A stretch of 63,127 nt of DNA, counting the filler, from Conidiobolus incongruus B7586 (taxonomy: Eukaryota): the NCBI GenBank assembly GCA_000697335.1. It is 9 parts of 9 records of this genome, joined end to end, with 100 filler letters (N's around TTAATTAATTAA, not from the genome) between each part and the next. Parts side by side here need not be neighbours in the genome. Positions count along the whole stretch, not along the records: positions 59,074 to 61,494 come from JNEM01006026.1; 8 more parts are not named here. The stretch is one strand, 5' to 3'. A program made the translations under genes and the position numbers. The notes below the pieces were generated by a model that was not told the origin of the DNA, did no database searches, and saw nothing but the letters and a program-made list of their open reading frames with translations. Positions 2 to 63,127 of the stretch are shown here, piece after piece (the first letter of the stretch is position 1; each line of letters begins with the position of its first letter).

Positions 2-1021
2 TTTCTGTGGATTCGATAGCATTTCTTTGAGCATTCCTTTAATCTTATTGATGATGGGAATTAATTTGGTATTATATGATCCATCAGGAGAGGAATAGTA
101 CTTTTTGAAGTAGTTTTCTATAGCTGCAATATAGTCCCCAAGGTTTCGATTGGATACAAATGCCAATGCATCTATTAAACTCTTTTCATCATCATCTCTC
201 TTACCAGTTATGCCGGGCTGGAAATAAGCTGACGGTTTATTGGGATCAGGTGATGACAGCCGATTTAGTTCGTTGAAGAGAGTCTTATAACGCGTAACAA
301 TAGTGGGATCTTTGAGATTTATATCTGGAGCTTGAAGCAAACTAATTGCTTCATTGTATGGCGTATAAAGCACAGAGTCTATTGTGCCATCTCTATTCAA
401 GAAATACTGATTTAAGTATCGAGTGATAAAATCAACCACCAAATTCAGATTCTCTTCATCAACCGACTGGATAGCATATAAAACATTCTGCTCGTCAGTT
501 TGCTGATTACCAGTCAAAGTCAATTGGATACTTGAAGAAAAATTCAGCTTATCTTTTGCAAGTGATTCCAATTGGGTGAGATAGGCTTGGATTTGAGTGG
601 GAGTTGATGAAAGATTTGCGTCACAGTCCCTGGAGTTTAAAAAGTCAAACAGCTGGCCAATAACACTGGATATGTCCGGTCTGTATGTGCCGTCTTGGTT
701 AGCAAAGTGCCGATACACGAACAAATTAATCAAATCAATCACTTGTTTTTTCGACTCTGGCCTCATTGAATTTATAACCTGCAAAACATTATTTTTATCC
801 GATTCATAATTCTGTCTAATGAATGAGGAAGTTTGCGAACGTGATGCTAATACTCTTGGTTGGTCCAGAGCAATAGTATGAACACAAACTTCACAATTGT
901 CTATAAAATTAAGCGAATTACTGGATTCTGTAACCGTATTGAGCTGAGACTGAGGATTGGCTCCAATGCCCAGCACTTGGATTAAAGTCACTATAAATAT
1001 GCTCTGTGACCACTTCTTCAT
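2..1021 (-). CDS. Secreted ~105-aa tandem-repeat protein, N-terminal part (runs off window start)
   Basis: Hand translation from ATG at 1021 gives 340 open codons to the window edge: MKKWSQSIFIVTLIQVLGIGANP (signal-peptide-like), then about 3 repeats such as QPGITGKRDDDEKSLIDALAFVSNRNLGDYIAAIENYFKKYYSSPDGSYNTKLIP that match the repeats of 59075-61494. Absent from the ORF track because it has no stop in the window. Confidence 0.85.
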   Translation of the reverse strand, partial: MKKWSQSIFIVTLIQVLGIGANPQSQLNTVTESSNSLNFIDNCEVCVHTIALDQPRVLASRSQTSSFIRQNYESDKNNVLQVINSMRPESKKQVIDLINLFVYRHFANQDGTYRPDISSVIGQLFDFLNSRDCDANLSSTPTQIQAYLTQLESLAKDKLNFSSSIQLTLTGNQQTDEQNVLYAIQSVDEENLNLVVDFITRYLNQYFLNRDGTIDSVLYTPYNEAISLLQAPDINLKDPTIVTRYKTLFNELNRLSSPDPNKPSAYFQPGITGKRDDDEKSLIDALAFVSNRNLGDYIAAIENYFKKYYSSPDGSYNTKLIPIINKIKGMLKEMLSNPQK

Positions 1022-30832: not shown

Positions 30833-32601
<1,769 letters not shown>

Positions 32602-34552: not shown

Positions 34553-34652
34553 NNNNNNNNNNNNNNNNNNNNNNNNNNNNNNNNNNNNNNNNNNNNTTAA
34601 TTAATTAANNNNNNNNNNNNNNNNNNNNNNNNNNNNNNNNNNNNNNNNNNNN
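34553..34652. other. Artificial contig linker
   Basis: 44N-TTAATTAATTAA-44N. Confidence 0.99.
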
Positions 34653-41700: not shown

Positions 41701-41831
41701 GATTAAGAAAGATGAAACAGTTTAAAGAATTTGTTAATAGGTCGGATAAGTCGCAATTAGATGAGTTAAAAACTAAAGCTAAGGAACTCTCACAGGATCC
41801 TTATATTAAAAAGATTTTGGAGCAATTCTAA
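38767..41831 (+). CDS. MSH2: DNA mismatch repair protein MSH2, intron-rich 5' part
   Basis: TGPNMGGKSTYIRQ Walker A, RVGAGDSQLKGISTFMAEMLE, DELGRGTSTYDGFGLAW and FATHFHELT. 5' exons carry SPGNYQEMEDMLF and EFLDNDIFSNFESLIIQIG. Confidence 0.96.
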
Positions 41832-41892
41832 TCTTAAATACATATACCATTGATTCATTTTTTATGATAAAATAAAATTTATTAATAAATAA

Positions 41893-42883: not shown

Positions 42884-44170
42884 TCTAGTTTATCTTTTAA
42901 TAAAATAATTGCTTTGGTTTGGTGGTGAATATTATGTAGATTTTGATAATAAATGATGACTTGATTCAATATAAAATTTAAATTTAATAATATTTTAAGT
43001 GATGATTATGGGACAGTAAGTTCTTATTGGTTAATATTGGTAATAATTTTAAGATAATTTAGATATCAAATCAATATTTCTTGGAATTGGATTAGAATTA
43101 TTATAATAAGTATTATCAATACATTGTGATATATATATCATTTATTTTAGCTTTAATTTTTTCCGATGTTTTTTAAAAATTGTTCAGATTTTGCCATATT
43201 ACTTTAATTCATTAATCAATTACAAGTTGTACTTGTCTCGAATTATTCCCAAGTAGATATAATGTTATTCATATTTTACAATGAATATCATTACTAAATT
43301 GAAATTTTTTATTTTCAGATAGCTAATATACTTAAATAAATTAATATATTTTAATTATATAGATATTATTCCAAATTTTTTGATATTATAGCACTAAATT
43401 ATGGATATTCAAGAAATTGAATAATATAGAGTAATTGGTCACAAAATCAAATTTTATTAATTGATGTATTGATCAATAATAGTAATATGGTTAATTGATA
43501 ATATTATTATCAGCTATTTAATTAATATAATATATATTTTATTTTTGAACTAGTTATAATTTAAAGCAAATAATTTCTGAAATAAATTTTCTTAAAATTT
43601 CAATATAAATTTAACAATAATTTAATGTGAAAATTTGACTCAAATATTAATTTCAATAATAATACAGTATCATTGTCTTTGGCAAATTTTATATTATCAA
43701 TTCCATAAAATAAATTCATATTAAGAAATTGTTCCGAACTATTGTTTATATCATTTATTTTCATCTTAATCATTTCTTAATCAAATTTTTTTCTTATAAT
43801 TAATAATTTTTTAAAAAAATTTAAGGTCAAAGAAATGAGCATTTATTATCATCTTACTTAAATTTTTTAGCTTGAGATAAAAACATTAACAGTTAGCCAA
43901 GTTTTTATTTTCATTATATATCAAATGATTTTAATTTAGCTATCATTTGATATAGATAACAGTATATAAACTCATGATTATTAAGAAAATGATTTTAAAC
44001 TTCACAACCCTACAGATAATAAATGTGATATAGAAAATTTATAATGATTTAATAAGAGTAAATATAAATGACAATATAATATAAATAATAAAAAGGTTAT
44101 GAACTATTGAAAATATTTTTGAAATTTATAGATATTGATTTAAGCTTATCATTTAATTTAATCCAAGGGT

Positions 44171-45719
44171 TTAGTATCTGTTCCAAGCCATGCCACCACG
44201 GATACGGTTGTAGTCAGGAAGACATTCGACGGGACCGTAACCAACAACGGCAACTTCACGGTCCCAGAGGTTTTCACCAGCAACGCGACGAACATCGGCG
44301 GCAGTGATTCGATCGATCAAGGCAGCGGCTTCGGTGGGGGCAACACGCTTACCAGTGGTAACCAATTGGCGACCAATGTCTTCGGCGATGGGAGTGGTAC
44401 CATCTAAAGAGAAGAGGAGATTGGCTTTGAGTTGTTGCTTGGCACGTTCGACTTCACCTTCAGTAACGGAGGTGGTGAGTCTAGACCATTCACCGGTGAC
44501 ATTGTTGATCAAGTCATCAATGCAGTCCTTGTTTTCGGTGATGAGGTAAATACCCCATAAACCGGTATCAGAGTAAGAGGTATTGAAGGACATGAAGGAG
44601 TTAGCCAAGTTGTGCTTTTGAACGACTTGGGACAAACGGGAGGACATGAAGTTGTTGGAACCAAGAGAGCGATCCCAGTTACCAATCAAAGAGCTCATTA
44701 ATAACATGGTGTAGTAATCAGGGGAGTTCCAGCTGACACCTTCAACAGCGAGAGCAATGTGGGCAGCGGGGATATCATCATAGCGGATACGAACTTCAGA
44801 ACCAGTGAAGTTGGGCTTTTGCTTGTTGACAACAGAGGGGGTGCTGTTAGCTCCGGGAAGATTGGAGAAATGCTTGGAAGCCAATTCAACTAATTCTTCG
44901 TGGTTAACACTTCCGGAACCAACTAAAACAGTGTTATGAGGGTTGTAGTGTTGTTCAATGTAAGAGCGGAGATCTTGGGAATTGATAGATTTGATGTTTT
45001 CCTTAGGTCCCAAAATAGTACGGCCCAAAGCGTGGCCTTGGAAGGCAGTAGCGTGAAGGTGATCAAAAACAACTTCTTCGATCTTTTTTTCGACTTCGAT
45101 CTGTTCAGTCAAAATGACATCTCTTTCACGTTCAATAGCTTTGTGATCAAAAGTAGAGTTTTGAAGAATGTCAGCAAGGATATCAACAGATTTATCAACA
45201 TCAGATTTGAAACATTTGGCATAGTAGACAGTTTGTTCTCGAGAAGTGTAAGCGTTAAGATGACCACCCATATTTTCAATAGCTAATTCTAAATCTAATT
45301 GGCTACGAGTTTTGGTACCCTATATAAAAGATTAGCTATGAAATTAAAGCTCCTGACATTAATATATACCTTGAAGGCCATATGTTCTAAAAAGTGAGCA
45401 GTACCGTTATTTTGGGCGTTTTCAGCACGGCTACCAGCATCGATCCAAACACCAACGGTGGCAGTTTGGGCTTCAGGATGAGTTTCAGTAGCAACGGTCA
45501 AACCTGAAGGAAGAACAGTGACCTTGGTGGAAGGTAAGGAGTAAGAAGATTGAGCATGGGAGGCCAGAGAAGCGGTGGCATTTCTCCAAATGGGTTGTAA
45601 ATTCTAAATGAAAATATTAATCAATTGGTTCGATTCTAAAGACTAGCTGAAGAAACTGGAAGGCGCAATTATACCTTATTGAATTTGGAGATATTTCTAG
45701 ATAAAAGTCTGGAGGCCAT
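44171..45719 (-). CDS. MAS1: Mitochondrial processing peptidase beta subunit (M16), 3 exons
   Basis: Presequence [39 protein letters not shown] (HxxEH), [13 protein letters not shown] and SYSDTGLWG. Confidence 0.95.
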
Positions 45720-46951
45720 GGTAATGTTGATTAATTTGGATTGAAACCAAGTTTACGCAACAAGATTACTAGTAGATATAATTAAGTATTAAAATCTACA
45801 ATATTTAGCATTAGTTTGTGGTATAAAAATTTCACATATTTCACTCATATTTACTGACCAATCAAATCTTCTATTATTCTGATCAATTCAAAGATTAGAT
45901 TATCTATAGCCTAAAAATTGTTATATATAATCATTCAAGTGCAATGGATTGTTATTTTATATTTTTATTAACAAATATAAGTTTTCAATATTTTTATAAT
46001 TTATTTTTATTATTACTTATTGATAATTCCTTTAATTTTAACAAATAATATTTGATTTATTATAAAAATCCATTACAATTAATAATGAAATGGAAATTTA
46101 AGTTAGATATTAATATAATTCAACTCATTTAAACTATTATATAATATTCAATAGATAATATATAATTAAAAGTGTAAAAATGAAATTTTACATAATAATC
46201 TTATTGAATTTAATTTTTTTATTTCAATTATAAATATATTTCGTTTCAATACTTTTATTGTTTCATATAATTAAAAAATGATCTGAATAATAGTTTGAAA
46301 ATATAATGTTTTTAATAGAATCATTTATGAAATAACAAATCATCCATTATGATGATAACTATGATATTGTATTGTAACTATGTTATAATAAAATTTAAAA
46401 TATCAGGCATTAATTATTGATATCATCTAACTGATAAGATGATCTATCCAAATAATTTTTCACTAAGAATAAATATATTCAAAATTAAATATTCATAATA
46501 CAAATATCATATTCAATATAATTGTATAGTTTTTATCGATTCAAATACCAAATAATTTAATTAGCTGAATATAAAATAAATATGTATTATCAGACCATGT
46601 CATTATCTGATAAATATAGTAAAAGATATTGTTATATAAATCTAATTTGCTTTCTATATCTTAATTTTTAACAATTATTATAAACATAATTAAACAAAAT
46701 TTGAAATTAGGACGTTGATCCATTTTTAAGATCGAATATAATACATAAAATTAAATTATCACATTGTTATTGTTTTAAATTAGGCATTATAATCGATGGT
46801 TGTTATATTAAATTTTATATATTCATAAAAAAACCCATTCACAGGTTTCAAGGATTGATTTAATATACAACTATTATAAAAGATTCATAATAATGTAACA
46901 AGAAATTAAAAAATGAAGTAAAATATCTGTTTAATATAGCAAATATAAGTT

Positions 46952-48398
46952 TTAATTTGATTTAATTAAAATACCAAATAAAATAAAGCACAAGCAAATA
47001 CTGAAAACCAAAATGTGGTAGAATATTCTTCGGTATTGGGTTTAACCTCACTCAAATTAACATTTTTGACAAATTTAAAATTCAATAGCTTAGATATACT
47101 ATCCACTGGATTAAAGGATGCCGATGGAGTCTGTATTATAGGCTATAATGTATATTAATAAAATGAAGATAATGTCAAGTATTTAAAATTACATCTTGAG
47201 TAAAGGAATCCAAACTATCAAAACTAATTTCTTCATCGAGTTGAATGGATTTGAATTCTTTGGTAGTTAATTCATCAACACGACATTGCTGGACATTTCC
47301 AAAAAAGTCGGTAATCAAAGTCTATAAAATATAATATTAGTAATGATATATTGAAAATTTAATTAAATGAATTACTTCTGATAATGGTCTGGAAAAATGC
47401 TCTTCACTAATACCTGGCTCGGAGAGAATATCGGCTGGATTGTAACTATTAAACTAAGTTGGAATAAGATTAGTATAGAAATCTAAAATTTAATGTAATG
47501 GCTTACTAAGTCAGCTAAAGTAAGATTAGAATCTTTTTGAACATTTTCCAGAAATTCCAAATTATAATAAGTAAATCTATCAATAACAGTAACACCAATA
47601 TCTTCATCTAAATGATGAGAGTATGATTTTTTATCAAGGGGTGAAGAGCCGACGGATAAGACATTGGGTGAATAAATTTGAGAATACATAGTGTTAGCTT
47701 CACAAGTATCAATCATGAATAAAATTTCCTTATATCTCTTCTTTTGCCACATTTGTTCAATAGCGTCACCAAAATCTTGTGCTGTAATTTCATGATTATC
47801 TTGAAATTTAAGGAATTTATTACCACCATGACCTGTCATATAAATGAGAATATTAGAGCTGTCATCAGATTGCAGTCTCTTATACTTGGGGGTTGATTCA
47901 GGCAATCTTCCTATATTATTGAGAAATATTATATATATATTATTAAAGTATTAATACAATAAATAGGTAAGTAAATAATACCAGTTAATAATCTAATAAA
48001 AGTCTCTGCAGTGACATCATAACCTCTGTAATCAACTTGAACATCCTGACCATATAATTCTAAACGGTGGTCTCTATTATTGAATACTTTTCCAGGATAA
48101 ACGTTTCTTGGGTTACAAGCAATATCATCAGCTAACATTAAAATAATATTGGAGTCGGGTATACCCAAACGCTTTACAGTTCGATAAATACTTAAAGCAT
48201 TTGCCATGTGACGATAATTAAACCAATATCTTGAAGTACTGACCTAAATAAGATAATTAATTATAATTTTAAAAGTCATGTTGAATGAATAAATACAATA
48301 ACTGCCCAGTTATTGGTATGAGAATGTTTAATTAAATTTGAAGCATTTAAATTCAGAATACAATAAATGTAATAGATAATAATATTTAATATATTCAT
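46952..48398 (-). CDS. GPI8: GPI-anchor transamidase catalytic subunit (peptidase C13), multi-exon
   Basis: [29 protein letters not shown] (His), IDTCEA (Cys), VIDRFTYY, and a C-terminal TM segment. Confidence 0.95.
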
Positions 48399-49104
48399 TA
48401 TTAAATTATTACTTATTATGTCATCATATTTGATTGGACTTGGTGTTTTTAAAATAAAATACTAATCATAATGATTTCAAAATATGGGATTACTAAATAA
48501 ACCGTACCTAAACCATAATTTATATTTTTATTAAAACAGTTTAAATTCTAATTATTGAGCATTAAATATGTATCCGAATCCAATTTTAATTATTCTTCAT
48601 AATATTAGTGATATCAATATATATTAATATCTATTTTACTTTTCATCATAATTTATACCATTATTACTATTATTTATTGAGCTTTGTTTTTAGTATACAT
48701 TCAAATATCTAGGTACATATACCACCATATTACAATCTACAATTTAATATTTATTAAAATTCTGTGCAATCTATAGATTTTTATTAAACAGAGCATTATA
48801 TTGTGATATATCGAATCTCTTCAGTGGTAAGATATTTTATACATTAAACCATAGCTCGAAAATTTTTTGTTTAATTTTTTTGATTTAATTCATAATGATT
48901 TTCACTGATTTATTCATCTAAATATTTTTCGATTTTTGAGTCATTATATAGAATTAATTTCATATTTTAATATCTCTTAATTACTGAATTTTTATTAGAA
49001 TTTTTTGTCCGGAAACTCATATTATTCCAACCTTAAAAATTGTTGAACTAATTTACCCCAACGAATATTATTAGATAAAATATAGTATAAATTATTGATT
49101 TGAA

Positions 49105-51011
49105 ATGGCTCAAAACTCTTTAAACATCGAAGAATTAACATACTCAGAGAAAATTGATCTTATTAGAAAATATTGGCAATTCGCAGCAATTTGTCAATTT
49201 TTTTTAACTTTTCAAGCTGCATATAACTTTTCTGAACCCTTTGAAACTGAAGTAATTAATTATTATGATATAATAATTATTGTATTTAATTTTATTTAGC
49301 AATTGGAAACTGCTTTGGCAAAAAATGATAAAAGTTATATAGAACCAATTTTATTAAATTTGATGAAAAACTTACCTGGTCAAAGATTTATTCAGTAATG
49401 AAAACTGATTAAACTTATCATTAAAATGCAGATTATTAATTGATTATCAATATTATAGTTTGCCAGTGTTGGAGGTCCAAATGAAAAAGGAATGCCAAAA
49501 ACGTGGATTTTCTAGCCCTTTTTTAGAAGAAAATCACCCTGGCTTCTTTAGTTTACAAATTCCTGATCAGGTAATAATTAAGTTATTATTCAATAATATG
49601 GATTATTAAGTTTTAATTCTAGATTAAACTAATTCATGCTTTGACAGAATGGCAGATGGAAGATTTTGAGAGGGTGAGAGCCAAAGTAGATGAAGAAGAT
49701 GATTGTGATGAATGGGTATATACTCTATAATTATTGGCTTCGATTTTTGTTCATTTAATAGCATTTTAATTTATTATTAGAGAATTGAATCTATAGGGCG
49801 AGATAAAAAATATAACACTTATTGGCTATTTGATGGTATTTAGTGTGATTGCTAAACTATAAAACTAAGCATCTAATCAATGATTCTTCAGATAATCGAC
49901 TTTATAAGCAAAAATATCAAGCACCTAAAAAATCCAAATCTGTCAAAAAATCTAAAAAGAATAATGGTCAAGAGCAGGTCTCCTCGGTTCCAACAGATTG
50001 GGAATTAGTAATACATCAATGAATTTATTATTTTCAAAGTATTTAATAATTTCTCTACAGGTTTGTTCTACTGCTCATGAATGGGAACAATTTCCTAGAC
50101 AATTCGAAAATAGTAGAAATTTAGATGAGCAATATTTGAGAGATTTCTTAATTGAACACGTACTTCCCAAAGTTTTACCCGCTATCAAATCGAAAGAAAG
50201 ACAAAAGAAGAAAGAGGAACTAAATATGACTTTCCAACCCAAGAGGTCATCAAGACTACAAGCTAAAGAGCTGTACAGGAAAGAGCTTGAAGAACAGCAA
50301 AGAAAGATGGAATTACTAGAAGCTATGGAAGCTAGAGAGAAGAACTTCAAGGATTCTAAATCCGAAGCAGTTATTCAGAATATTCCAAATTTAAATACAA
50401 GAGAAATGAGAGCAAAGCGCAGAGCTTTACTTAATGAAGGTCGTTTGGAAGAAGTGTTACAGCTGGAGCGTGATGGGGTTATGAGATCTGTGTTCAATGT
50501 ATCTGACGCCCAAGCTAAAATAAAGCCTAAAGAGGAAGAGACTACAAATGAAAACATTGAAAATGGCGATCATGCGAATGAAGATTCTGAAGAAGAATGG
50601 TATTTTAAATGTGTTTGTGGTGCTGAAGGCAAAAACCGTGATGATGGCCTAATGATGATAGCGTGTGAGCGTTGCGGGATTTGGCAACATGTTCAATGCC
50701 AAGATTTCTACGCTGATAATCCTCAAAATCTTGATTTATCATCAATATTCTTTTTGTGTCAAGATTGTTTAATGAATAAGCCATCTGGTGCGGCATTGGC
50801 CACCAATTTATCCAACCAATTGGATGAATCTTCTGAACGTACTACCTCCGATAATAACACGCCATCAAACCGTACTGACATTACTCGAGAATCCTCTCAA
50901 TCTGTAGCTCAAACTTTAGGCTATCCACTTGCTGCTCTCAACTTAAATGGAACTGATCCTAACTCACCCATGAGTTTAGATGTAAGATCTATTGATTCTA
51001 ATCCAGAATAA
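49105..51011 (+). CDS. Chromatin protein with DDT/WHIM-like N-terminus and C-terminal PHD finger (RSF1/CECR2-like), multi-exon
   Basis: WQFAAICQFF, RIESIGRDKKYNTYWLFDDNRLY and VCSTAHEWEQF. PHD finger FKCVCG...MIACERCGIWQHVQC...FLCQDC. Confidence 0.8.
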
Positions 51012-52256
51012 AATATAATATTATTTTAATAATTTTTAGTGTCTAATTACAATGAAATCTCTCTTATATCCAAACATTTACTCTAGATACTGTAGCAACA
51101 GACTATCCCCTTTTTCTGTATAAATTAATATGACTTTAATGTATTATTTTAACCAATCCAAGTTCATACTTTATTGAAATAATATATTTTCAACTTTTTA
51201 TTAAATCGAAAAATGTCTCGAATTAGAGATTTTAATTAGTTAACAAACATTGATGTTTTTTGAAATTTTTTTCTATGATATTTTGAATTTGTAATTTTAT
51301 ATATTAAGGACACTGTAAAACGATTAGATATTAATCAATTTATTTTATTTGCATTGTATATTTTGAAACAAAGTATCGATTATTAGAAAAACCTTTATCA
51401 TATTTTAACAATATCGAAGACAATATTATTTTATATTGCGAATTATATTATAGCACAGTTATAAACAAATCATTTATTCTTTCGATATTAATGCTTAATG
51501 ACTTGAATATAATAAAAATTAACTTTAACTGGTTTAAGTAGAAATTAAGGATAGTTATTTTCATTTGTTAGTATTCATTATGTTTACTTATATAATAAAA
51601 AATAGAGCTGCATAATATTATATAATTATTAATTGAATAAAATACTTACAAATTTCGAAATATAGCAACTTTAACTAAAATATTAGACCTTGGATGAAAC
51701 ATTTAAACTGATGCTAACTATTAAGATAATTAATATTTCAAAATAAATAATAATTATTTTTTGAATTGAATATACATAATTTTTCAATATTTGAAAACTA
51801 AGTCAAAAATATTAATTATTTTTTCAAGATAATAATGATTTGTATAAATTTTCAATCAATTTTTCATTAATAAATTATAGTTGGAATTTAGAAAACTTAG
51901 AGTTTTAAATGGATATATATATAGGAAATACCTTGACCTTATATATGAACAAAATTAATATTCAAATCATAAAATTTTTTATTCACAATTTTTTTGTTGA
52001 AATATTACCAATATAATACATTCAAAATTAGAATTTACCAATATTAATAATAATTATTGAATTTTAATCAATTAATATTTGAAGATAAAAAAACAATATA
52101 ATTAATATTATTGATATTAAAATTAATGATAATTACAATTATATATAATTATTACTATAGAATTAAAGAAATAGGAAATTTTTTAATTTCTGATTTTTCA
52201 AATATATTATTAGTTTCAAATAAAAAAATATATACAAAACAAATAGTTTTGAATTA

Positions 52257-52283
52257 GATATATATATATATATATATATATAT
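52257..52283. repeat. (TA)n microsatellite; similar tracts at ~22306-22327 and ~26526-26540, and (AAT)n at ~30288-30313
   Basis: Direct reading of the sequence. Confidence 0.85.
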
Positions 52284-52720
52284 AATAAATTTTTTGATTA
52301 AAAAAATAATTTTTTAAAATTAGTTGTTTAATTTAATTATGTTTAAATTAAATAGTAACTATCAAAAGTTTTTTATTTTAGTATTAATAAAACTTAACTA
52401 TAAACCCTTTAAAATCATTTAAAATTTATAAACAATTTTTAATAATAAAGTATTATCTAAATTAACAATTTATTGCTAGGTAAATTACTTTAAAGTTAAA
52501 AAAAACTACTTAAAACTTGTTAAAATTTAAAAGATTAATTTTAACTATTATTCTTTTAATTGTTAATAAAGTAAAAAAATATATTAAAAAGTACCTTTTT
52601 ATTTTAATTAAAGAATTATTAAAATACTTTAATATTAGTTACATAAGTATATTATATATATTAAAGTTTAAATTAAAATTAATTAATAAAAATATAAAAT
52701 AAATACTTTATAATTTAACT

Positions 52721-52820
52721 NNNNNNNNNNNNNNNNNNNNNNNNNNNNNNNNNNNNNNNNNNNNTTAATTAATTAANNNNNNNNNNNNNNNNNNNNNNNN
52801 NNNNNNNNNNNNNNNNNNNN
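52721..52820. other. Artificial contig linker (identical linkers at 54222-54321, 55810-55909, 57429-57528, 58974-59073 and 61495-61594)
   Basis: 44N-TTAATTAATTAA-44N. Confidence 0.99.
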
Positions 52821-54221
52821 CAAAAACTATATATTATTAAATTATAATCAATTTAATGCTGTTATAAATATAATAATAAAAGATTACTGATATAATATAA
52901 AGGAAGACCTAATATAGAGATAGTGTGGCATAAAATATAGTAATATATTATGGGATATAATGTGAATATATAAACAAAGTTTAATTAAGCTTTAAATTAG
53001 GATAAGTCATTGATATATTAAAATTTATATTAGGTAGTATTAATACACTGTAATATTGATAGAACATAGTTTCAATTTTAAAAATAATGAAAAAAATAAA
53101 AAATAATAAGAATAAAGAAAAAAAACCTAATATATTAAATAGTTTAATACTTTTTATATAATTAATTTAACTATAAAAGTATAATTTAATTATATAATTT
53201 ATAATTAATTAAATTATAAAGAAATATATAAAAGAGTTTAAAAAACTAGTTTTTTAATATTTTTTTAATAAATTTCTTAAAAGAAACATACTCCTTAAAT
53301 TTTTACAAATAAGTATAATAAGTTAAGATATTCTTAATGTTTTTTAAGGTTTTTTATATAATTTATTTAATAAGATAACCTATTTAATTTATATAAAAAT
53401 AAAGCTTATTCTTAATAGATTTAAATTTAATTATATAATAAATATAATATTTTTCTTCTCTATCTTAAATAATAATTTAATCTAGTTTTAAAGCTTTTAA
53501 TTAATTAAGAAATATATTAAAATCTTTAAAATTAGGTTTGATTTTAGATATATAAAAGGTAAAGCTAATCTTTACAATTAAAAATAATTCTAAAATAATA
53601 TTTTCAAAATTTAAATCATCAGATTAAATCTTATAGGTATTATAATATAATAATAAATATTTTGGATTTAAACTAAATTTAAGTAAGATAAATTTAAAAG
53701 CAAATTATTCTAAGTATATAAACATATTAGTTTTATATTTAAAAAGATTTTTAAATAACTTAAAATCTTATTATTGATAATCTTTTAATTTTCTTTTAAG
53801 TTAAATTTAATAAGGGAGTTAATCTATTTAATATGAAATTAAAATTTAATAATATCTAAAGATAAGTTGATTTAAAGTTTTAAAACAATTATTAAATTAA
53901 GATATTTATTATAATTGATAAAATAAAAATTAAAACTTATTAATTTAATCAATAAAAATATCAAATAAATATTAAAGTTGGAAGATATAGGCATTTTAAT
54001 TTAAATGATTAATGTTAATATAAGTTTTAATCATTTACTTTAAGGTTTTAATAGTTTTTTCAATAAGTTTATTAATTTAATAGTGATTAATAGTAAACAT
54101 AACTAGATTAATCTTAAAGGAAAAAGTTAGTAACTTATAGAATTAAAAGTTAAATTATATATTTCTATTAAATACAATAGTTTATAAAATTTTATAATAG
54201 GTAAAAATATTAGGGAATAAT
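52821..54221 (-). mobile_element. Hypermutated Ty3/Gypsy LTR-retrotransposon relic (integrase core, GPF/Y module, probable chromodomain)
   Basis: Minus frame from 54220 reads TAT TAT AAA ATT TTA TAA ACT ATT GTA TTT AAT AGA AAT ATA TAA TTT, which back-transitions to HHGIPQTIVSDRDTQF. This is followed by MSTANHxQTDGLAERTI with D-35-E spacing and, near 53535-53565, SPTFHVSKIKP. Confidence 0.8.
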
Positions 54222-54321
54222 NNNNNNNNNNNNNNNNNNNNNNNNNNNNNNNNNNNNNNNNNNNNTTAATTAATTAANNNNNNNNNNNNNNNNNNNNNNN
54301 NNNNNNNNNNNNNNNNNNNNN

Positions 54322-55804
54322 TTATTTAATTAAAATCTATTATACTTATTAATAATATATAATATTAAATGATAATATTTAGTTATTAATTGGTTAAAAT
54401 ATAAATCTTTAAATTTTACCTAATATAAGTTATAAATTTATAGGTTTTTGATAATAGAACAAATTAAAACTTAGTATATCTATCTTTAATTTTTCTAACT
54501 TCTTAAAGTTTATAAGGTATAGAATCAATTAACTTCTTATATTAAAAAAGGTTAATTTTGTTTTCTATTTTTTAAACATATTTTTAAAGATAATTTGAAT
54601 TTTTTATTAAAAGGAAAACTTTAATAACTTTTTTTAACTATTCCTAAAGATATTTAATTAGGTTAAAATTAAAAAATTAAAGAAGCTACTTTATAATTAT
54701 TATCTTGTTATTTTTAAGTTATTTAGTAATAGAAGCTGTAGTATAAAAAAAGGTATTAATTTACTAAAAAATAATATTAGATTTGTTTAACCTATACTAT
54801 TTAATATTTTTTTTAATTTATTATTTAAAATATTTTAATATATCTTAATATTAATTCCTTTATTAACTTTATAAAAATATCTTATACTTAAAGATAATAT
54901 ATATCCTTAAATAATAATTAACCTATTATTATATTTTTAGATAAAATTAACATAATAGTTATAAAGTAATTCTATATCTTTTCTGAAATATCTAGTTTTT
55001 TTTCAAATTTACTAAAATATATTTTTGTTTTTTTAAATTAAATAACCTTACTCTAATTAGTTTTAATTTAATATTAATAGTGATATTTAAACTCTTGCTT
55101 AACTTTATAATAAGATTTCTTTAGTTGGGGGTGTTATTTCTTAAAATATAAGTGATATCTATATTAATATAAATTATATATAATAATATTAGTATTAACT
55201 AATATTCTTATATAATTTTATAATTCTGGTTATATTTCTATAATAATATTATATTTACCTATATTAATTAACCTATAGATATATTTCTTATTATATTTAT
55301 TTATAATCTTCACACACTTAAGTTTAAGTTTAAATATGTTTTTATTACTATTATTAATAACTTTTACTATAGTAAACTAGTTAAAATTAATAATTCTAGC
55401 AATATTATAAGTTAATTTATTTTTTTTATAAAGTTAATTAATACACAAGTAAATTTTTTTAGAGAGGGATTTAAGTATAATGATATTAATAAAGAAATTA
55501 GTATATTTATAAAATATTATATAAAATAATAACAAAGAGAGAAGAAAGATATAGTTATATATTGTTAAATATATCCTTTTATCTCAAAAACCTGTAAATT
55601 TATAACTCATCTTAATTAAATATTAGTGGTTAATTTTTTTGCTAATAGTTTACTAAATATATCTAAATATATTTATCTATTATCAAATAATATATCTTAA
55701 TTATATATTATAGTTTGAAATAATTTAATATATATAATTGTTTTAGTTATTAATTAATATATATATATTTTTGATTTTAAAACTTACTTTTATAAGTTAG
55801 TATA
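54322..55804 (-). mobile_element. Hypermutated Tc1/mariner DD34E transposon, copy A (transposase relic 54464-55478; left TIR ~55767-55802 then TA)
   Basis: Colinear with 61595-63127 and the reverse complement of 55910-57355. Differences are overwhelmingly C/T and G/A. Confidence 0.9.
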
Positions 55805-55909
55805 ATAATNNNNNNNNNNNNNNNNNNNNNNNNNNNNNNNNNNNNNNNNNNNNTTAATTAATTAANNNNNNNNNNNNNNNNNNNNNNNNNNNNNNNNNNN
55901 NNNNNNNNN

Positions 55910-57355
55910 AATAAATATATTTAAATATATATAGTAAACTATTAGCAAAAATATTAACCCTTAATATTTAACTAAAGTGAGTTATAAATTTACAAGTTTT
56001 TAAGATAAAGGGATATATTTAACAATATATAACCATATTTTTTTTCTCTCTTTGTTATTATTATATATTATATTTTATAAATATACTAAATTTTTTTATT
56101 AATATTATTATACCTAAATCCCTCTCTAAAAAAATCTATTTGTATATTAATTAACTTTATAAAAAAAATAAATTAACTTGTGATATTGTTAGAATTACTA
56201 GTGTTAGCTAGTTTACTATAGTTAAAATTGTTAAGAATAACAATAAAGAAATATTTAAACTTAAACTTAAGCATGATAAAATTATAGATAAATATAATAA
56301 GAAGTATATTTATAAGTTAGTTAATATAGGTAAATATAATACTACTCTAGAAATACAACAGGAACTATAAAACTATATAGGAATATTAGTTAGCATTAAT
56401 ATTATTATATGTGTTTTATATTAATATAGATACCATTTATACTTTAAAACAAACACTTTTAATTAAAGAAATCCCATTATAAAATTAAATAAGAAGTTAA
56501 ATGTCATTATTAATATTGAATTAAAACTAATTAGAGTAAGGTTATTTAGTTTAATAAAACAAAAATATATTTTAGTAGATTTAATAAAAAACTAGATGCT
56601 TTAAAAAAAATACAAAATTACTTTGTGACTATCATGTTAATTTTACCCAAAAGTATAATAATAGGTTAATTATTATTTAAGAATATATATTGTTTTTAGG
56701 TATAAGGTATTTTTATAAAGTTAATAAAGGAATTAATATTGAGATATACTAAAATATTTTAAACAATGAATTAAAATAAACCATTGAATAATATAGGTTA
56801 AATAAATCTAATATTATTTTCTAGTAAGATAATACCTTTTGTTATACTATAGCTTTTACTACCAAATAGCTTAAAAATAACAAGATAATAGTTATAAAGT
56901 GGTTTTTTTAATCTTTTAACTTTAATTTAATTAAATACCTTTAAGATTAATTAAAAAAAACTATTAAAGTTTTCCCTATAGCTAAAAATTTAAATCAACT
57001 TTAAAAATATATTTAAGAAATATAGAATAAGATTAACCTTTTTTAGTATAAGAGGTTAATTGATTCTATATCCTATAAACTTAAAGAAGTTAGAAAAACT
57101 AAAGATAGATACACTATGTTTTAATTTTTTTTATTACCAAAAAACTATAAATTTATAACTCACCCTAGGTAAAATTTAAAGGTTTATATTTTAGTCAATT
57201 AATAGCTAAATATCATTATTTAATGATATATATAATTAATAAATATAATAGATTTTAATTATTTAATTTAGATTTATTTCATTAAATATTAATTAAGCTA
57301 TTAGTAAAAATATAAGTGTTTTTGATTTTATAACTCACTTTTGCAGGTTAGTGTA
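55910..57355 (+). mobile_element. Hypermutated Tc1/mariner DD34E transposon, copy B (transposase relic 56110-57124; right TIR ~57316-57353 then TA)
   Basis: Back-transition gives DWSKVIWSDETKI...KHGGGSIIIWGC...FQQDNAPCHT...KWPPQSPDLNPIEHLW...DSMP.RLKEVRKTKGGYT, with 34 residues between the second D and the E. The end reads ...taactcacttttgcaggttagtg|TA. Confidence 0.92.
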
Positions 57356-58613
57356 TAAAAGTTTTTAAAACTATTATAAATAGTTAATTTATTTTTAAAA
57401 ATTCTAAAAAGGTAATTTAATATGTTAANNNNNNNNNNNNNNNNNNNNNNNNNNNNNNNNNNNNNNNNNNNNTTAATTAATTAANNNNNNNNNNNNNNNN
57501 NNNNNNNNNNNNNNNNNNNNNNNNNNNNCTGTAGAGTAATATTACAAATTAATGGATCAAAAATTTGGTGGAAAAATCATTATATATTATAGGAATGATG
57601 TAGGCACTTGAAAGTAATAATTCTGTTACATATGTTTATTCAATAATTGGATTTACAAATAAATATCCTGATTGTTCTTACAATCATTGTGTTTACTATA
57701 AATGGTACCAACAATTATATTAGAATATCTAAATTTCTTTCAGGTTACTGATTTTGTGTAAATTTAGAATATTTTTTGATACTGTACAAATTAGAAAGAT
57801 CAGTCGTTTTCTTAATAAGTCTTTGAATATGTATATTAGACAATCAACTACTGCATTTGATACATCATCAAAAAATTAAGAAAATGATATATTAAAGCCA
57901 ACCTTGATACATATAAAATTTGTCCTATATGCTTTTCAAAATAGAACTTACTTTCATTTGGATATATTCAATTAATTTTATTTTAGGCTTAGTTTATAAT
58001 TGGAACAATACTAATCAAAAAATATAATTAATAACAAATGTTTTCTAATAGGTTTAGATTAAACCATTTTTAGGGGATAACCTTTTTCCATTAGCTTCTA
58101 AAATTAGTTATAACAATTTTAAGCCAGATCAAAATATTCCAAACTTCTTCAATTGAAATATTTTCTTAGGTATATATTGATATATTTTAGAGTATTGAAT
58201 TTTAAATTTCATGCTTATCAATCATTTTAATTAATATATACCATGTAATAAAATTTATAACGTTTGAATATAATATAATAGTTGCTTTTACAAATTCTTG
58301 ATAATTGAATCATGGCTGTTATAATTTTATTCTGGTTTGAAAACAAAAAAAAACAAGATTTTAGGTCAAAATTCATGGAAAAAGTTGTCCTCTCAAAAAT
58401 GGTTTTTATTATTAAAATAAAATTTGTGATAATTTTTTTCTAAAACAAGTAATATTTAGATGTATACATCATTATAAATATATCCAGTATATAATTTGAA
58501 AAATACTATTAAAGATGCATTTCAAATATGAATATCATAATAAAAACTTCAATATATACATGTTATTAATTTGTAAAATATAATATTAAATATTTATTAA
58601 ATAATACTAAAAT

Positions 58614-58973
58614 TTAGCGATAGAATTTCTTGTTTATCAATCGCAATAATAAATTAACATTCAGTTTGACTTCACCATCAAACAGAGCCATGATACGAAC
58701 ATTGTCAAATTGGTACTGGAGTAGTTCTTCTAGTTCGAGCTCTGTTGTTGCTCCAGGCAAAGGTACTTTCAAATAATGCGCTGTGATTTGAAATTTACCT
58801 ATTTCCTTGCAGCTAATGATCACATCAATATGAGGGTACTGTTTGGGAGTAAATTCATTCATTGACACTAATACTCCTTTGTTGTGCAAGCGTTCAGCAG
58901 TGTATAAGAATGATCCAAATTTAGCAGAATGACCCATATTGGAAAGCTGCTTGCACTGGAAGTAATTCTTGGT
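58614..58973 (-). CDS. IQGAP (Iqg1/Rng2-like) RasGAP C-terminal fragment, 5' truncated
   Basis: KFGSFLYTAERLHNKGVL...LEELLQYQFDNV..MALFDGEVKLNVNLLLRLINKKFY is the typical IQGAP C-terminus. Confidence 0.88.
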   Translation of the reverse strand, partial: TKNYFQCKQLSNMGHSAKFGSFLYTAERLHNKGVLVSMNEFTPKQYPHIDVIISCKEIGKFQITAHYLKVPLPGATTELELEELLQYQFDNVRIMALFDGEVKLNVNLLLRLINKKFYR

Positions 58974-59074
58974 NNNNNNNNNNNNNNNNNNNNNNNNNNN
59001 NNNNNNNNNNNNNNNNNTTAATTAATTAANNNNNNNNNNNNNNNNNNNNNNNNNNNNNNNNNNNNNNNNNNNNG

Positions 59075-61494
59075 GAAGCCTACTCTGAGTTAAGCAGACT
59101 ATTAAGTTATTACTATAAAACCTCGGGCGATGGAGCTGACATGAAGATTTTCCCACTTATAGCCAATACTTTGGAATTGCTCAAGGCTGATAAATTCGAT
59201 GGTAGCGCCCCTAATATAAGAGCTGAATTTGAAACTAAGTTCCATAAGCTGGACGAAGCTTTGAAGAAACTTGAAGAGACTGCTCCTAAAGCTCAGTTAT
59301 ACGAACACCCTCAGCTTACTACCAATTTCGAAAGTGACCTCAACAAATTGATTGAATCATTTAAAACAGTAACCAAAGACAACATAGATGAAGCCAGGAA
59401 ATTTATAAGACTCTTCTTAGTAACTTATGTAGGAGATCCAAATGGCAACTTCAATGTCCATATTGCGCCAGGAGCGGCAGAAATTACTAAGTTTGTATCT
59501 AGTGATCATTTCGATTTCCATAACCATGATGATTTGAACAAATTGTCGAATATGATTACCGAATTATACAAACTCTGGTCTCAAGGCTCGGATCAGAGTG
59601 CAAATTACTATCATGCACCCCGAGTGAGTGGGAACAGGGAAATAGATGCCAATGCACTTATCGAGTCATTTGCTAATGTAGATCGTGACAATAAGCAAGA
59701 TGCGATCAAGGCACTTGAAGCTTATCTCAAGCATCACTACAGCACTGATAAAAATGGCAGCTACAATCTTAAAATCTTCAAACTTGTTAGCGATTTGACC
59801 AATCTAGTGACAAAACCCGGATTTGATCTCAGTTCCAAGGAGAACCAAGCACAAATTTCATTATATTTCAGCCAATTGAATTTCCTTAAGGATGAATTGG
59901 ACAAGACTGGAAGCATCGAAAAAACTTGTAATTTACCCAAGATATCTGGTGATAAATCACAGGATAAAAAGGCTATTTCAGAACAGTTCCCCAAATTAGA
60001 CATTTCATGTAAGAAAGAAGCTGCCGAATTTATCGATAGTTTTGTCAATAATTACTATCATAATGACCAAAATACAATTGATTTCACCCTGATTCCTCTT
60101 ATTAGCAAGATAATGAGTAATATTGAAAGCAGTTCCTTTGATTTCCACAATCGTGAATCCATATTTGAAATTCTGGTCAAGTTGGACCAACTTGAGGATG
60201 CATTCAAGCAGGCCAGTAAGCATCACCAGAATGAACAACCATTCAATCCACCGCCAATCTCATATGATAGGAAGGAATTTATTCGAGAATTACTCGAATC
60301 TTTGAGACATGTCACGCCTGAGACCAAAGTTAGTGCCATCAATTATTTGATTAGCTTTACTAGACAATACTACAGTAGAAATGGAGGTGGTTTGGATCAT
60401 CATTATTTCGACATTATAAATGAACTCACCGAGTTACTAAAAGCGAAAGATTTCGATTTTAGCAATCCCATTTCTATATCCAAGATCAAAGAGATCTTCG
60501 ACAAATTAGAAGCGGTTGGAGAGTATTACAGCTCTGAAACAGAGGAGCATATCGAATACAAAGGTGTTGAAATTACCGGTGACATTCAATCCGATTTCGT
60601 CAGATTTATCGAAAGTTTGTACAATGTGAGCGAAGCTAATCGTCCTGAGATCAATAACTTTTTAATGCACTTTGTAGAATATTACTTTATTCCACCCGGT
60701 GAAAGGGATTACCCCAAAGAAATTTTCTCAATAGTTGTCGAACTGAAAAACCTCATCACTAGCCACGATTTCAACTATGTTACTAGAGAAAATCTTGAAA
60801 ATTTAAGACTGGTCTTCGAGAAGTTGATCATGACAAAAGAGGCTTTGGATCATCCTACAGAGGCTCCCAAATACTTCCTCCCTCCAACTCTGACCGGCAA
60901 TAAGGTAGAAGATGAGAAGCTCATGTTCGAATCACTTAGAGATGTGACTCTGTTCAACAAGCAACAGGCTGTTGAATTCATTAACTTTTACCTTAAGGTG
61001 CATTATGCTGACTCTAATGGAAACTTCCTCCCTAGTATCGCCAAACTTGTAAATGACTTATTATCCATGATCAGTGTACCTAGTTTTGATTTAGCTGATA
61101 CTAATGGAGCTAAAATGATCAGGTTATATTTGACTAAGATCGAGCAAGAGCTCAAGAGGATTCAAGACCAGAAAGCTAATCGACCTGGTTACAAAGAGCC
61201 CGAGCTTTCTGATAATCGACAGATCAATATGCAGCTCGTGATTGCCAGTTTCAAAACGGTCACCCCAGATACAAAGATAAAGGCGGTGAACTTTGTTAAC
61301 AAATATTTAACGGTGGTATATGGTGAACCCAACGGTTATTTCGATTTGGATCTCATCAAATATGTAAATGATGTGTTCGCTGTGGTTTCAGACCCTAACT
61401 TCGAATTCAATAGAGATTCAGATGTCCTTCGATTCCAAAAGCTCCTGCTCAAATTGGATGCCGAGTATGACAGAGTAAAAGCGCCAACGCCCAA
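59075..61494 (+). CDS. Large ~105-aa tandem helical-repeat protein, internal fragment truncated at both ends
   Basis: The whole 2.4-kb contig is one intronless open frame with about 7.5 diverged repeats starting PQLTTN, PRVSGN, PKISGD, PPISYD, VEITGD, PTLTGN and PELSDN. Confidence 0.9.
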
Positions 61495-61594
61495 NNNNNN
61501 NNNNNNNNNNNNNNNNNNNNNNNNNNNNNNNNNNNNNNTTAATTAATTAANNNNNNNNNNNNNNNNNNNNNNNNNNNNNNNNNNNNNNNNNNNN

Positions 61595-63127
61595 TATAAG
61601 TTATAAAATCAAAAACACTTATATTTTTACTAATAACTTGATTAATATTTAATAAAATAAACTTAAATTAAATAATTAAAATCTATTATATTTATTAATA
61701 ATATATATTATTATATAATGATATTTAGCTATTAATTGGTTAAAATATAAATACTTAAATTTTACCTAAGGTGAATCATAAATTTGTAGGTTTTTAGTGA
61801 TAAAAAAAAATTAAAACTTAGTGTATTTACCTTTAGCTTTTCTAACTTCTTTAAGTTTATAGGGTATAGAATCAATTAACTTCTTATATTAAAAATAGTT
61901 AATCTTGTTCTATACTTCTTAAATATATTTTTAAAGTTCATCTAAATTTTTTACTAGGGGGAAAGCTTTAATAACTTTTTTTAACTAATCTTAAAGATAT
62001 TTAATTAAGTTTAAGTTAAAAAATTAAAGAAGCTACTTTATAACTATTATCTTGTTATTTTTAAGCTATTTGGTAATAGAAGCTATAATATAATAAAAGG
62101 TATTATCTTACTAGAAAATAACATTAGATTTGTTTAACCTATATTATTCAATAGTTTTTTTCAATTTATTATTTAAAATACTTTAGTATATTTTAATATT
62201 AATTCCCCTATTAACTTTATAAAGATATTTTACACTTAAAAACAATATATATCCTTAAATAATAATTAACCTATTATTATACTTTTAGGTAAAATTAACA
62301 TGATAGTTATAAAATAGTTCTACATTTTTTTTAAAGTATCTAGCTTTTTTATTAAATTTACTAAAGTATATTTTTGTTTTATTAGATTAAATAACTTTAA
62401 TTAGTTTTAGTTTAATATTAATAATGACATTTAAACTCCCACCTAGTTTTATAATAGGATTTCTTTAATTAGGGGTGTTTTTTCTTAAAGTGTAAGTAGT
62501 ATCTATGTTAATATAAAATATATATAATAGTATTAGTGTTAACTAATATTCTTATATAGTTTTATAGTTTTTGTTGTATTTCTACAATAGTATTATATTT
62601 GCCTATATTAACTAACCTACAGATATACTTCTCATCATATTTATTTATAATTCTAACACACTTAAGTTTAAGTTTAAATGTGTTTTTATTGTTATTTTTA
62701 ACAACCCTAACTATAATAAACTAGCTAACACTAGTAATTCTAGCAATATCACAAGTTGATTTACTTTCTTTATAAAGTTAATTAATACACAAATAAATTT
62801 TTTTAGAGAGGGATTTAAGTATAATAATACTAATAAAAAAAATTTAATATATTTGTAAAATATTATATAAAATAATAATAAAGAGAGAAAAAAGATATAG
62901 TTATATATTGTTAAATATATCCCTTTATCTTAAAAACCCACAAATTTATAACTCACCTTAGTTAAATATTAAAGGTTAATATTTTTGCTAATAGTTTACT
63001 AAATATATCTAAATATATTTATTTATAGTTAAATAATATACTTTAATTATATATTATAATTTCAAGTAAATTAATATATACAATTGTTTTAGTTATTAAT
63101 TAAAATATATATATTTTTGATTTTATG
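61595..63127 (-). mobile_element. Hypermutated Tc1/mariner DD34E transposon, copy C (transposase relic 61811-62822), nearly full length
   Basis: Starts inside the right TIR (ttataaaatcaaaaacac) and ends inside the left TIR (tttttgattttatg). Colinear with copies A and B. Confidence 0.9.

What the first reader, a model, noticed from the sequence alone, without database searches (positions are those of the whole stretch)
59075..61494. Unrecognised ~105-aa helical tandem-repeat domain in a very large intronless protein
At least 7.5 highly diverged repeats share a consensus of roughly P-x-[ILV]-[ST]-G-[ND]-x3-D-x3-hh-ES-[FL]-x2-V-x3-[NT]-x3-A-x2-[FY]-h-x2-[FY]-h-x2-[YH]-Y-x3-NG-x-[FY]-[ND]-x2-h...FD[FL]...h-x2-h. 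They form amphipathic helices with Pro/Tyr linkers and almost no Cys. I recognise no Pfam family. The repeats are diverged at DNA level, so they are old and probably selected. Beads-on-a-string helical bundles in a probably secreted protein suggest a ligand or lipid-binding polyprotein, an adhesin or a host-directed effector (speculation).
Basis: partly seen in the sequence, partly recalled or inferred. Interest (0 to 1): 0.72.

Follow-up and report, generated by a model that had tools for sequence, protein, structure and literature searches.

The report
Giant secreted fungal four-helix-bead protein fragment
This stretch is an internal fragment of a gene for a giant fungal protein built only of about 103-residue repeats from a family that no database names; each repeat is predicted to fold as a four-helix bundle, and the protein is predicted to be secreted and likely forms a long flexible surface or matrix fibre, though its function is untested.

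Summary
Window 59075-61492 (+) is one open frame of 806 codons holding 7 whole units and one partial unit of 101-106 residues. The units are about 22% identical to each other and show no repeat at DNA level. The stretch is a whole small contig, joined to its neighbours by artificial N/TTAATTAATTAA linkers, so it is a gene fragment. Contigs of public runs extend at least 1.2 kb and 1.4 kb beyond its ends. Only three relatives turned up among billions of proteins. The first has 3,746 aa, 35 units and a signal-peptide-like start, and is collinear with the fragment at 35% identity. The second has 2,789 aa and 26 units. The third is a partial "hypothetical protein" of Conidiobolus coronatus. A second family gene starts at window 1021 (-) with a signal-peptide-like start. 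No Pfam family, solved-structure sequence or Foldseek match was found. AlphaFold2 predicts a four-helix bundle per unit (pLDDT 91) with low-confidence junctions. No regularly spaced basic cleavage motifs exist, which argues against a cleaved lipid-binding polyprotein. Variants within the sample give pN/pS of about 0.17. The best reading is a new, lineage-restricted family of giant secreted bead-chain proteins, likely structural or adhesive. The function is untested.

The parts
59075..61492 (+). Open frame of 806 codons, open at both ends. It is an internal fragment of an A-type family gene and corresponds to residues 2085-2883 of the 3,746-aa relative P0003.
59075..59299 (+). Unit R0, partial: the last 75 residues (helices 2-4) of a unit cut by the contig end.
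59300..59608 (+). Unit R1 (aa 76-178)
59609..59926 (+). Unit R2 (aa 179-284). This is the unit folded alone: a four-helix bundle with pLDDT 91.
59927..60241 (+). Unit R3 (aa 285-389)
60242..60556 (+). Unit R4 (aa 390-494)
60557..60874 (+). Unit R5 (aa 495-600)
60875..61189 (+). Unit R6 (aa 601-705). It is the unit most like its counterpart in P0003 (44% identity).
61190..61492 (+). Unit R7 (aa 706-806), cut a few residues short by the contig end.
58974..59073 (.). Artificial join (N44-TTAATTAATTAA-N44) between two contigs. It is not biology.
61495..61594 (.). Artificial join (N44-TTAATTAATTAA-N44) between two contigs. It is not biology.
2..1021 (-). 5' end of a second, B-type family gene that runs off the window's left edge. 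It holds a signal-peptide-like start (1021-959), a roughly 45-aa N-terminal piece with a CxxC pair, and units at 530-829, 236-529 and 2-235.

Best explanation
The 2,421-bp piece is an internal fragment (7 whole units and 1 partial unit) of a gene whose closest relative encodes a 3,746-residue protein of 35 tandem units of about 103 residues. Each unit is predicted to fold as a four-helix bundle. The protein is predicted to be secreted, and it likely acts as a long, flexible extracellular chain (a structural or adhesive fibre of the cell surface or matrix) rather than as an enzyme or a cleaved polyprotein.

Shown: the repeats, their divergence, the family's architecture, the absence of any known family, the collinearity with P0003, and purifying selection.

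Predicted: the four-helix fold, the loose junctions, and secretion.

Inferred:
- The conserved residues serve the fold. They are core hydrophobics plus a polar residue just before each helix.
- The surfaces differ from unit to unit but are kept between collinear units of two organisms, so each bead would have its own role along a fixed array, as in talin or spectrin.
- 35 beads of about 4 nm would span roughly 100-140 nm if extended. This is my estimate from a 27-residue last helix at 1.5 A per residue.
For: Architecture. Relatives are units from end to end. P0002 has 26 units covering residues 72-2789 with gaps of 0-3 aa. P0003 has 35 units covering 71-3726 plus a 20-aa tail. No other domain was found in them by Pfam.

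Secretion. The only hydrophobic stretch of P0002 is its N-terminus. P0002, P0003, P0004 and window ORF 2-1021(-) all start with a signal-peptide-like segment.

Fold. A single unit modelled with 11 aligned window units gives pLDDT 91.0 and pTM 0.81, with helices at 10-23, 29-44, 54-67 and 77-103. The whole fragment gives 31 helices, four per whole unit. pLDDT is under 50 at the junctions 171-178, 279-284, 486-492, 594-598 and 700-704, and pTM is 0.27.

Conservation. 27 of 103 columns carry at least 2 bits. 19 of them are hydrophobic, aromatic, Ala or Pro. The conserved polar columns 9, 28, 52 and 75 fall on the residue just before each helix (the mapping is mine).

Fixed old array. The fragment is collinear with P0003 2085-2883 at 35% identity with 9 gaps, against 21% out of register. 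Identity per unit is 26-44%.

Real gene under selection. The 30 variant sites in contigs of runs X1-X4 split into 18 synonymous and 12 non-synonymous, so pN/pS is 0.17. GC is 38%, like neighbouring genes.

Not a polyprotein. [KR]x[KR]R occurs 0 times in P0001-P0004.
Against: No RNA, protein or localisation evidence was obtained.

No retention signal was seen. There is no second hydrophobic stretch and no hydrophobic C-terminal tail, so attachment to the surface is unexplained.

The low pTM of the long model may reflect only its 4-row alignment rather than real flexibility.

The fold is a generic four-helix bundle, so it says nothing about function. The best VIA Z is 8.6, below the 13 or so that the tool asks for helical bundles.

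Unit-specific, fast-changing surfaces fit a host- or ligand-binding role as well as a structural one.

Secretion was judged without a signal-peptide predictor.
Confidence: 0.45

Rival explanations
1. Host- or prey-directed binding protein. The chain would be a secreted array of many different four-helix beads, each binding a different host (insect) or environmental molecule. It would act as an immune-masking coat, a decoy, or a multivalent binder or effector.
For: The only named relative comes from an insect-pathogenic fungus. Surfaces differ between units and change fast: 35% identity between collinear relatives and 28% for the B-type N-terminus. Each unit nevertheless keeps its own identity. 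The family is confined to a narrow lineage: 2 clusters among 1.84 billion representatives.
Against: No host-related motif or known effector fold was found. A chain of 320-430 kDa is far larger than typical translocated effectors (general knowledge). pN/pS of 0.17 shows purifying rather than diversifying selection overall. The lifestyle of the window's organism is not known.
Confidence: 0.2
2. Tandemly repetitive polyprotein. The precursor would be cut between units into about 12-kDa four-helix proteins that carry lipids or other small ligands, as in nematode polyprotein allergens.
For: It is a secreted, intron-free tandem array of small helical units. Nematode polyproteins also have few or no introns and helix-bundle units (PMC3079579, passages read).
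Against: [quoted passage not shown] That motif occurs 0 times in 4 family proteins. KR/RR pairs number 1, 4, 7 and 1 and do not sit at unit borders. Units are 22% alike and position-specific, unlike copies with the same activity. Another protease could still cut at the [YF]xxP junctions, and that was not testable.
Confidence: 0.1
3. The open frame is not a functional gene. It would be a chance frame, a pseudogene fragment or an assembly artefact.
For: It is an isolated 2.4-kb contig with no start or stop. No RNA holder is listed for it.
Against: An 806-codon open frame lies in DNA of 38% GC. It matches full-length relatives at E 8e-276 and 7.5e-127. pN/pS is 0.17. Four runs of one sample hold it, with contigs that continue beyond both ends.
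Confidence: 0.02

Closest known systems
Giant staphylococcal surface proteins Ebh / Embp (FIVAR-GA helical-bundle repeats)
   Same: Both are very large exported proteins made almost wholly of tens of tandem small alpha-helical bundles that form a long chain. Embp is about 1 MDa with 10 F- and 40 FG-repeats, each of two helical bundles (PMC7587433, abstract seen in the listing). Its role is adhesive or matrix-binding.
   Different: Those are bacterial, built of three-helix modules (recalled) and belong to Pfam families FIVAR and GA. No such Pfam hit was found here. This protein is eukaryotic, has four helices per unit, and shows no wall-anchor signal.
Talin rod / vinculin / alpha-catenin type chains of four- and five-helix bundles
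   Same: Both are strings of diverged four-helix bundles with position-specific identity kept between species. Vinculin tail and metavinculin are among the top structural rows (Z 8.1 and 7.8).
   Different: Those proteins are cytoplasmic, animal or amoebozoan, and bind actin or integrin (recalled). The Z values are within the background for helical bundles, and there is no sequence or Pfam relation. This family has a signal-peptide-like start.
Spectrin repeat (about 106 aa)
   Same: The unit length is nearly the same, the units are diverged, and the tandem helical array is ancient.
   Different: A spectrin unit is a three-helix bundle whose last helix runs on into the next unit (recalled). Here there are four helices and a Pro-containing, non-helical junction. 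The only spectrin-like Pfam row is 14.4 bits against a cut-off of 27.
Nematode polyprotein allergens (ABA-1 type)
   Same: Both are secreted tandem arrays of small helix-rich units encoded with few or no introns (PMC3079579).
   Different: NPA units are seven-helix and about 15 kDa, are cut at regular basic motifs, and bind fatty acids and retinol (PMC3079579). Here no such motif exists and lipid binding is untested.

Membership tests
Any Pfam-A family | Profile match at or above the family's gathering score | tested here: not met
   P0001 gives 5 rows at E 0.056-0.24 and 12.4-14.4 bits, all under their cut-offs of 23-37. P0002 and window ORF 2-1027(-) give 0 families at E <= 0.001.
Spectrin repeat | Three-helix bundle with a continuous helix linking neighbouring units, plus a PF00435-type profile match | tested here: not met
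   The model has four helices per unit and non-helical junctions with Pro. No spectrin profile lies above its cut-off.
Nematode polyprotein allergen-type tandemly repetitive polyprotein | [quoted passage not shown] | tested here: not met
   The motif occurs 0 times in P0001, P0002, P0003 and P0004. Dibasic pairs are not concentrated at unit borders.
Nematode polyprotein allergen-type tandemly repetitive polyprotein | Units bind fatty acids or retinol | not testable with these tools
   This needs recombinant units and ligand-binding assays.
Ebh/Embp-type FIVAR-GA repeat adhesins | FIVAR and GA module profile matches; bacterial wall or membrane anchoring | tested here: not met
   No FIVAR or GA row appears in the Pfam scans. 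The gene sits in a eukaryotic (fungal-type) context.
Talin/vinculin-type helical-bundle rods | Structural match standing clearly above other helical bundles, and a sequence-profile relation | tested here: inconclusive
   Vinculin tail gives Z 8.1 (rmsd 3.2, 93 aligned) and metavinculin Z 7.8. Unrelated bundles score alike (Der f 21 8.6, CheA P1 8.1), and the tool warns that Z under about 13 is common for helical bundles. Foldseek gives nothing at E <= 0.001.
Secreted protein (classical signal peptide) | N-terminal signal peptide and no other membrane span | tested here: inconclusive
   The fragment lacks its N-terminus. P0002, P0003, P0004 and window ORF 2-1021(-) start with a charged residue followed by a 12-15-residue hydrophobic segment and a small-residue site. 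The top hydropathy windows of P0002 are all at residues 1-27. No signal-peptide predictor was available.
The new family itself (P0002/P0006, P0003/P0005, P0004 = KXN71855.1) | Tandem units of about 103 aa matching the unit profile, in register | tested here: met
   A profile from P0002 alone finds 8 units in the fragment, 477.9 bits against 7.4 for the best of 200 shuffles. phmmer gives E 8e-276 and 7.5e-127. The fragment is collinear with P0003 at 35% identity.

The most novel reading that the evidence does not exclude
A fungal extracellular counterpart of the talin/spectrin/titin kind of mechanical chain: a protein of about 430 kDa made of 35 individually conserved four-helix beads. It would form the elastic or adhesive coat of hyphae or forcibly discharged conidia in Conidiobolus-type fungi. 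The domain is found nowhere else and each bead would offer a distinct binding face.
Probability: 0.2. Interest if true: 0.75.

Novelty: new variant of a known kind. Interest (0 to 1): 0.55.

Why it matters
The family would add a new protein domain with no detectable relative in Pfam, in solved structures or among 1.84 billion representative proteins, apart from two clusters. It would also be an unusual case for fungi: a secreted protein of 300-430 kDa made only of helical bundles, where known fungal surface proteins are mostly Ser/Thr-rich, beta-rich or Cys-rich (recalled).

Its only named relative is in an insect-pathogenic, occasionally mammal-infecting fungus whose surface and adhesion molecules are little known. 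My paper searches found nothing on this protein. It is therefore a concrete candidate for localisation and knock-out work, and small stable four-helix units of this kind are easy targets for structural study.

Tried and rejected
Searches and steps that gave nothing or were dropped:
- Whole-genome search: no genome is held for this window, so copy number could not be counted.
- The search for homologous proteins, near lengths: none.
- Profile of 11 window units against proteins of 187-2000 aa: none. This is weak evidence, because the search needs shared exact words.
- ESM Atlas, with the whole fragment and with unit R2: no usable hit.
- Sequence search of solved structures: 0 at E <= 10.
- Foldseek against PDB: best is Psb27 at E 0.9 and TMq 0.47.
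- Foldseek against viral models: best E 0.85.
- VIA wide search: only generic bundles.
- JGI metagenome scans with P0003 and with alignment A4: no relative.
- Sequencing runs: 4 holders, all from one sample and one study, and no RNA holder listed.
- Earlier findings of this scan: nothing for this genome, for this sequence or by words.
- Alignment A1 (overlapping unit pairs) came out of register and was dropped.
- Alignment A3 (3 units against whole long proteins) scattered the first 50 residues and was not folded.
- Positional orthology of the fragment with P0002: none. A-type against B-type arrays show only weak collinearity: offset 9 gives a mean of 27.6 bits against 15.9 overall.
- Papers: no paper holds CONCODRAFT_5379. 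No paper holds Conidiobolus + 'helix bundle' + repeats. The 2025 C. coronatus genome paper has no passage on such a protein; only its passages for repeat/adhesi/helical/largest/unknown function were seen. Supplements were not read and may list the gene.

Full report
WHAT THE WINDOW IS. The window is not one continuous piece of genome. It holds eight 100-nt joins of the form N44-TTAATTAATTAA-N44, which chain nine contigs: 1-24766, 24867-34552, 34653-52720, 52821-54221, 54322-55809, 55910-57428, 57529-58973, 59074-61494 and 61595-63127. The finding (59075-61494) is exactly one whole small contig. Its neighbours in the window therefore say nothing about its genomic context. No whole genome is held. 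The other contigs carry eukaryotic, fungal-type genes: MYG1, otubain, two Pex24p-like genes, a tetraspanin, zuotin, a HAMP-repeat kinase, MSH2, an M16 peptidase, a PHD protein and a RasGAP C-terminus. Composition is very AT-rich, with coding DNA at about 37-45% GC and some non-coding contigs at 11-17%.

THE OBSERVATION. Frame 59075-61492 (+) is open for 806 codons and open at both ends. ES[FL]-type anchors recur at residues 94, 197, 303, 408, 513, 619 and 724. That gives 7 whole units of 101-106 residues plus the last 75 residues of an eighth. The units are 14-30% identical pairwise, mean 22%. At DNA level no tandem or direct repeat with the 315-nt period is detectable. As an independent test of chance, a profile made only from the 26 units of another protein (P0002) finds all 8 units. 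They score 18.8-82.5 bits each and 477.9 bits in all, against 7.4 bits for the best of 200 shuffles. Cys is 2 of 806 residues and the fragment is acidic (pI 5.26).

IS IT A REAL, LARGE GENE? Contigs of four public runs hold the stretch. All four come from one sample and one study, which may be the source of the assembly, so they are not independent. The contigs continue at least 1,239 nt before 59075 and at least 1,419 nt after 61494. They differ from the window at 30 places. Of these, 18 are synonymous and 12 non-synonymous, so pN/pS is 0.17. That is the signature of a translated frame under purifying selection. GC and GC3 match neighbouring genes. No RNA run was listed, so expression is untested.

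RELATIVES. An exhaustive HMMER pass over 1.84 billion representative proteins found only two clusters. P0003 (3,746 aa) scored E 8e-276 and P0004 (2,003 aa) scored E 7.5e-127. The word-indexed search added P0002 (2,789 aa, E 4e-166), which is 82% identical to P0004. P0004 is KXN71855.1, 'hypothetical protein CONCODRAFT_5379, partial [Conidiobolus coronatus NRRL 28638]'. P0002/P0006 and P0003/P0005 are unnamed 'hypothetical protein' records. Further searches found nothing more: near-length proteins, a unit profile against proteins of 187-2000 aa, two scans of JGI metagenomes and the ESM Atlas. The family is therefore very narrowly distributed as far as these collections show. I infer that the window's organism is an entomophthoralean relative of Conidiobolus. 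This rests only on the one named relative and on the matching low GC (27.65% for C. coronatus; PMC12387763, passages seen).

ARCHITECTURE OF THE FAMILY. The unit profile tiles P0002 with 26 units from residue 72 to the last residue, with gaps of 0-3 aa. It tiles P0003 with 35 units from 71 to 3726, of which the first five are degenerate, leaving a 20-aa tail. The truncated P0004 holds 19 units. Unit length is held at 101-105 aa almost throughout. No other Pfam domain is present. All three proteins begin with a signal-peptide-like segment. The only strongly hydrophobic stretch of P0002 is that N-terminus, so no membrane span or GPI-type tail is seen. Predicted masses are 321 and 428 kDa, with pI about 5.4-5.6.

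TWO PARALOGUES IN THE WINDOW. The fragment is collinear with P0003 residues 2085-2883 at 35% identity, with only 9 gaps over 806 residues. Out-of-register alignments of the same two proteins give 21% (MAFFT confirms this). Identity per unit is 26-44% to P0003 and 16-30% to P0002. The fragment thus corresponds to about units 20-27 of an A-type gene, and each unit has kept its own identity since the two organisms split. Separately, the ORF at window 2-1021 (-) starts with a signal-peptide-like segment and an N-terminal piece with a CxxC pair. Both closely resemble the N-termini of P0002 and P0004. Three units follow before the window ends. This is the 5' end of a B-type paralogue. A-type and B-type arrays show only weak collinearity, so the split between them is old.

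FOLD. One unit (R2), modelled with an alignment of the 11 window units, gives a confident AlphaFold2 model. Mean pLDDT is 91.0 and pTM 0.81. An extended N-terminal segment is followed by four helices at 10-23, 29-44, 54-67 and 77-103. Of the 27 columns with at least 2 bits, 19 are hydrophobic, aromatic, Ala or Pro. The conserved polar columns 9, 28, 52 and 75 map to the residue just before each helix, which are helix-capping positions (the mapping is mine). So what is conserved among units builds the fold, not a shared active or binding site. The whole fragment was modelled with a 4-row alignment. It shows 31 helices, four per whole unit, and pLDDT under 50 at five unit junctions. Mean pLDDT is 76.6 and pTM 0.27. 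This fits independently folding beads with no fixed mutual orientation, but the shallow alignment may also explain the low pTM.

COMPARISON WITH KNOWN FOLDS AND FAMILIES.
- Pfam gives nothing above cut-off.
- Sequences of solved structures give nothing at E <= 10.
- Foldseek gives nothing at E <= 0.001 in PDB or BFVD.
- The exhaustive structural search gives a flat list of unrelated four-helix bundles: Der f 21 at Z 8.6, a designed repeat at 8.5, and CheA P1 and vinculin tail at 8.1. All are below the level the tool asks for helical bundles.

The unit is therefore a generic up-and-down four-helix bundle with no demonstrable relative.

HOW IT MOST LIKELY WORKS. The protein is predicted to be secreted, is made of nothing but beads, and has no catalytic domain. 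Its conserved positions are fold-only, its unit length is strictly kept and its junctions are short. The most economical reading is a long extracellular chain with a structural or adhesive role, roughly 100-140 nm if extended. That length is my estimate from a 27-residue helix at 1.5 A per residue. In general design it resembles the staphylococcal giants Ebh and Embp (PMC7587433, abstract in the listing). Its position-specific units resemble talin or spectrin chains (recalled). The unit-specific conservation argues against a mere spacer and for distinct roles of individual beads. I put this reading at 0.45.

RIVALS.
- A host- or ligand-binding coat or effector (0.2). It fits the fast-changing, unit-specific surfaces and the insect-pathogen relative, but it has no direct support.
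- A cleaved lipid-binding polyprotein like the nematode allergens (0.1). It fails the defining test. [quoted passage not shown] That motif is absent from all four family proteins, and the few KR/RR pairs are not at unit borders.
- A non-functional frame (0.02). It is nearly excluded by the homology and by pN/pS.
- The remainder is 'something else'.

NOVELTY AND LIMITS. No paper in the searched library names the one annotated member. None combines Conidiobolus with helix-bundle repeats. Supplements were not read. The family is a new repeat domain in a known general kind of protein, the giant secreted tandem helical-bundle chain. Still open are expression, location, processing, anchoring, the complete gene and copy number in this organism, and any ligand. 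No signal-peptide predictor, no AlphaFold DB library and no genomic context of the relatives were available.

Noticed in passing
window 24767-24866, 34553-34652, 52721-52820, 54222-54321, 55810-55909, 57429-57528, 58974-59073, 61495-61594: Eight artificial joins (N44-TTAATTAATTAA-N44) chain nine separate contigs into the window. Adjacency across them is not genomic, and frames seem to 'run into' them as X runs.
   Followed up: yes
window 24867-25595 (ORF 24867-26058, +): A near-perfect tandem repeat of 153 nt x 4.8 copies (98% matches) lies at a contig start. In the + frame it encodes an acidic, His/Gly-rich 51-aa repeat (...DDEVSVSQTVKVDEEDGHGGHHG...). In contrast to the finding, it is young at DNA level.
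   Followed up: partly
window 12472-13521 (-) and 15186-16295 (-): Two neighbouring Pex24p-like ORFs (E 1.7e-4 and 8.7e-6, just under the Pfam cut-off) have final ~100 residues that are identical as printed. This looks like a recent tandem duplication or gene conversion.
   Followed up: no
window 52821-58973: Five small contigs of about 1.4-1.6 kb fall in windows of only 11-17% GC. Four hold no ORF of 100 aa or more. The exception is the last one (57529-58973), which carries a RasGAP C-terminal fragment at 58614-58973 (-).
   Followed up: no
window 34655-35683 (-): A kinase fragment with repeated HAMP domains (276-nt repeat x 2.0, 75% matches), cut by a contig end. It is of the fungal HAMP-repeat histidine-kinase type (recalled).
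   Followed up: no
window 59075-61494: 30 variant sites (about 1.2%) separate the window from contigs of runs X1-X4. The contigs break near the variants, which suggests two alleles or nuclei, or two near-identical copies, in the sequenced sample.
   Followed up: partly
P0003 residues about 147-188; P0001, P0002: P0003 has a Ser/Thr-rich stretch (a run of Thr) between its degenerate first units. N-x-S/T sequons are few: 2 in 806 aa and 17 in 2,789 aa. That is about half or less of what the Asn and Ser/Thr content would give by my rough estimate.
   Followed up: no
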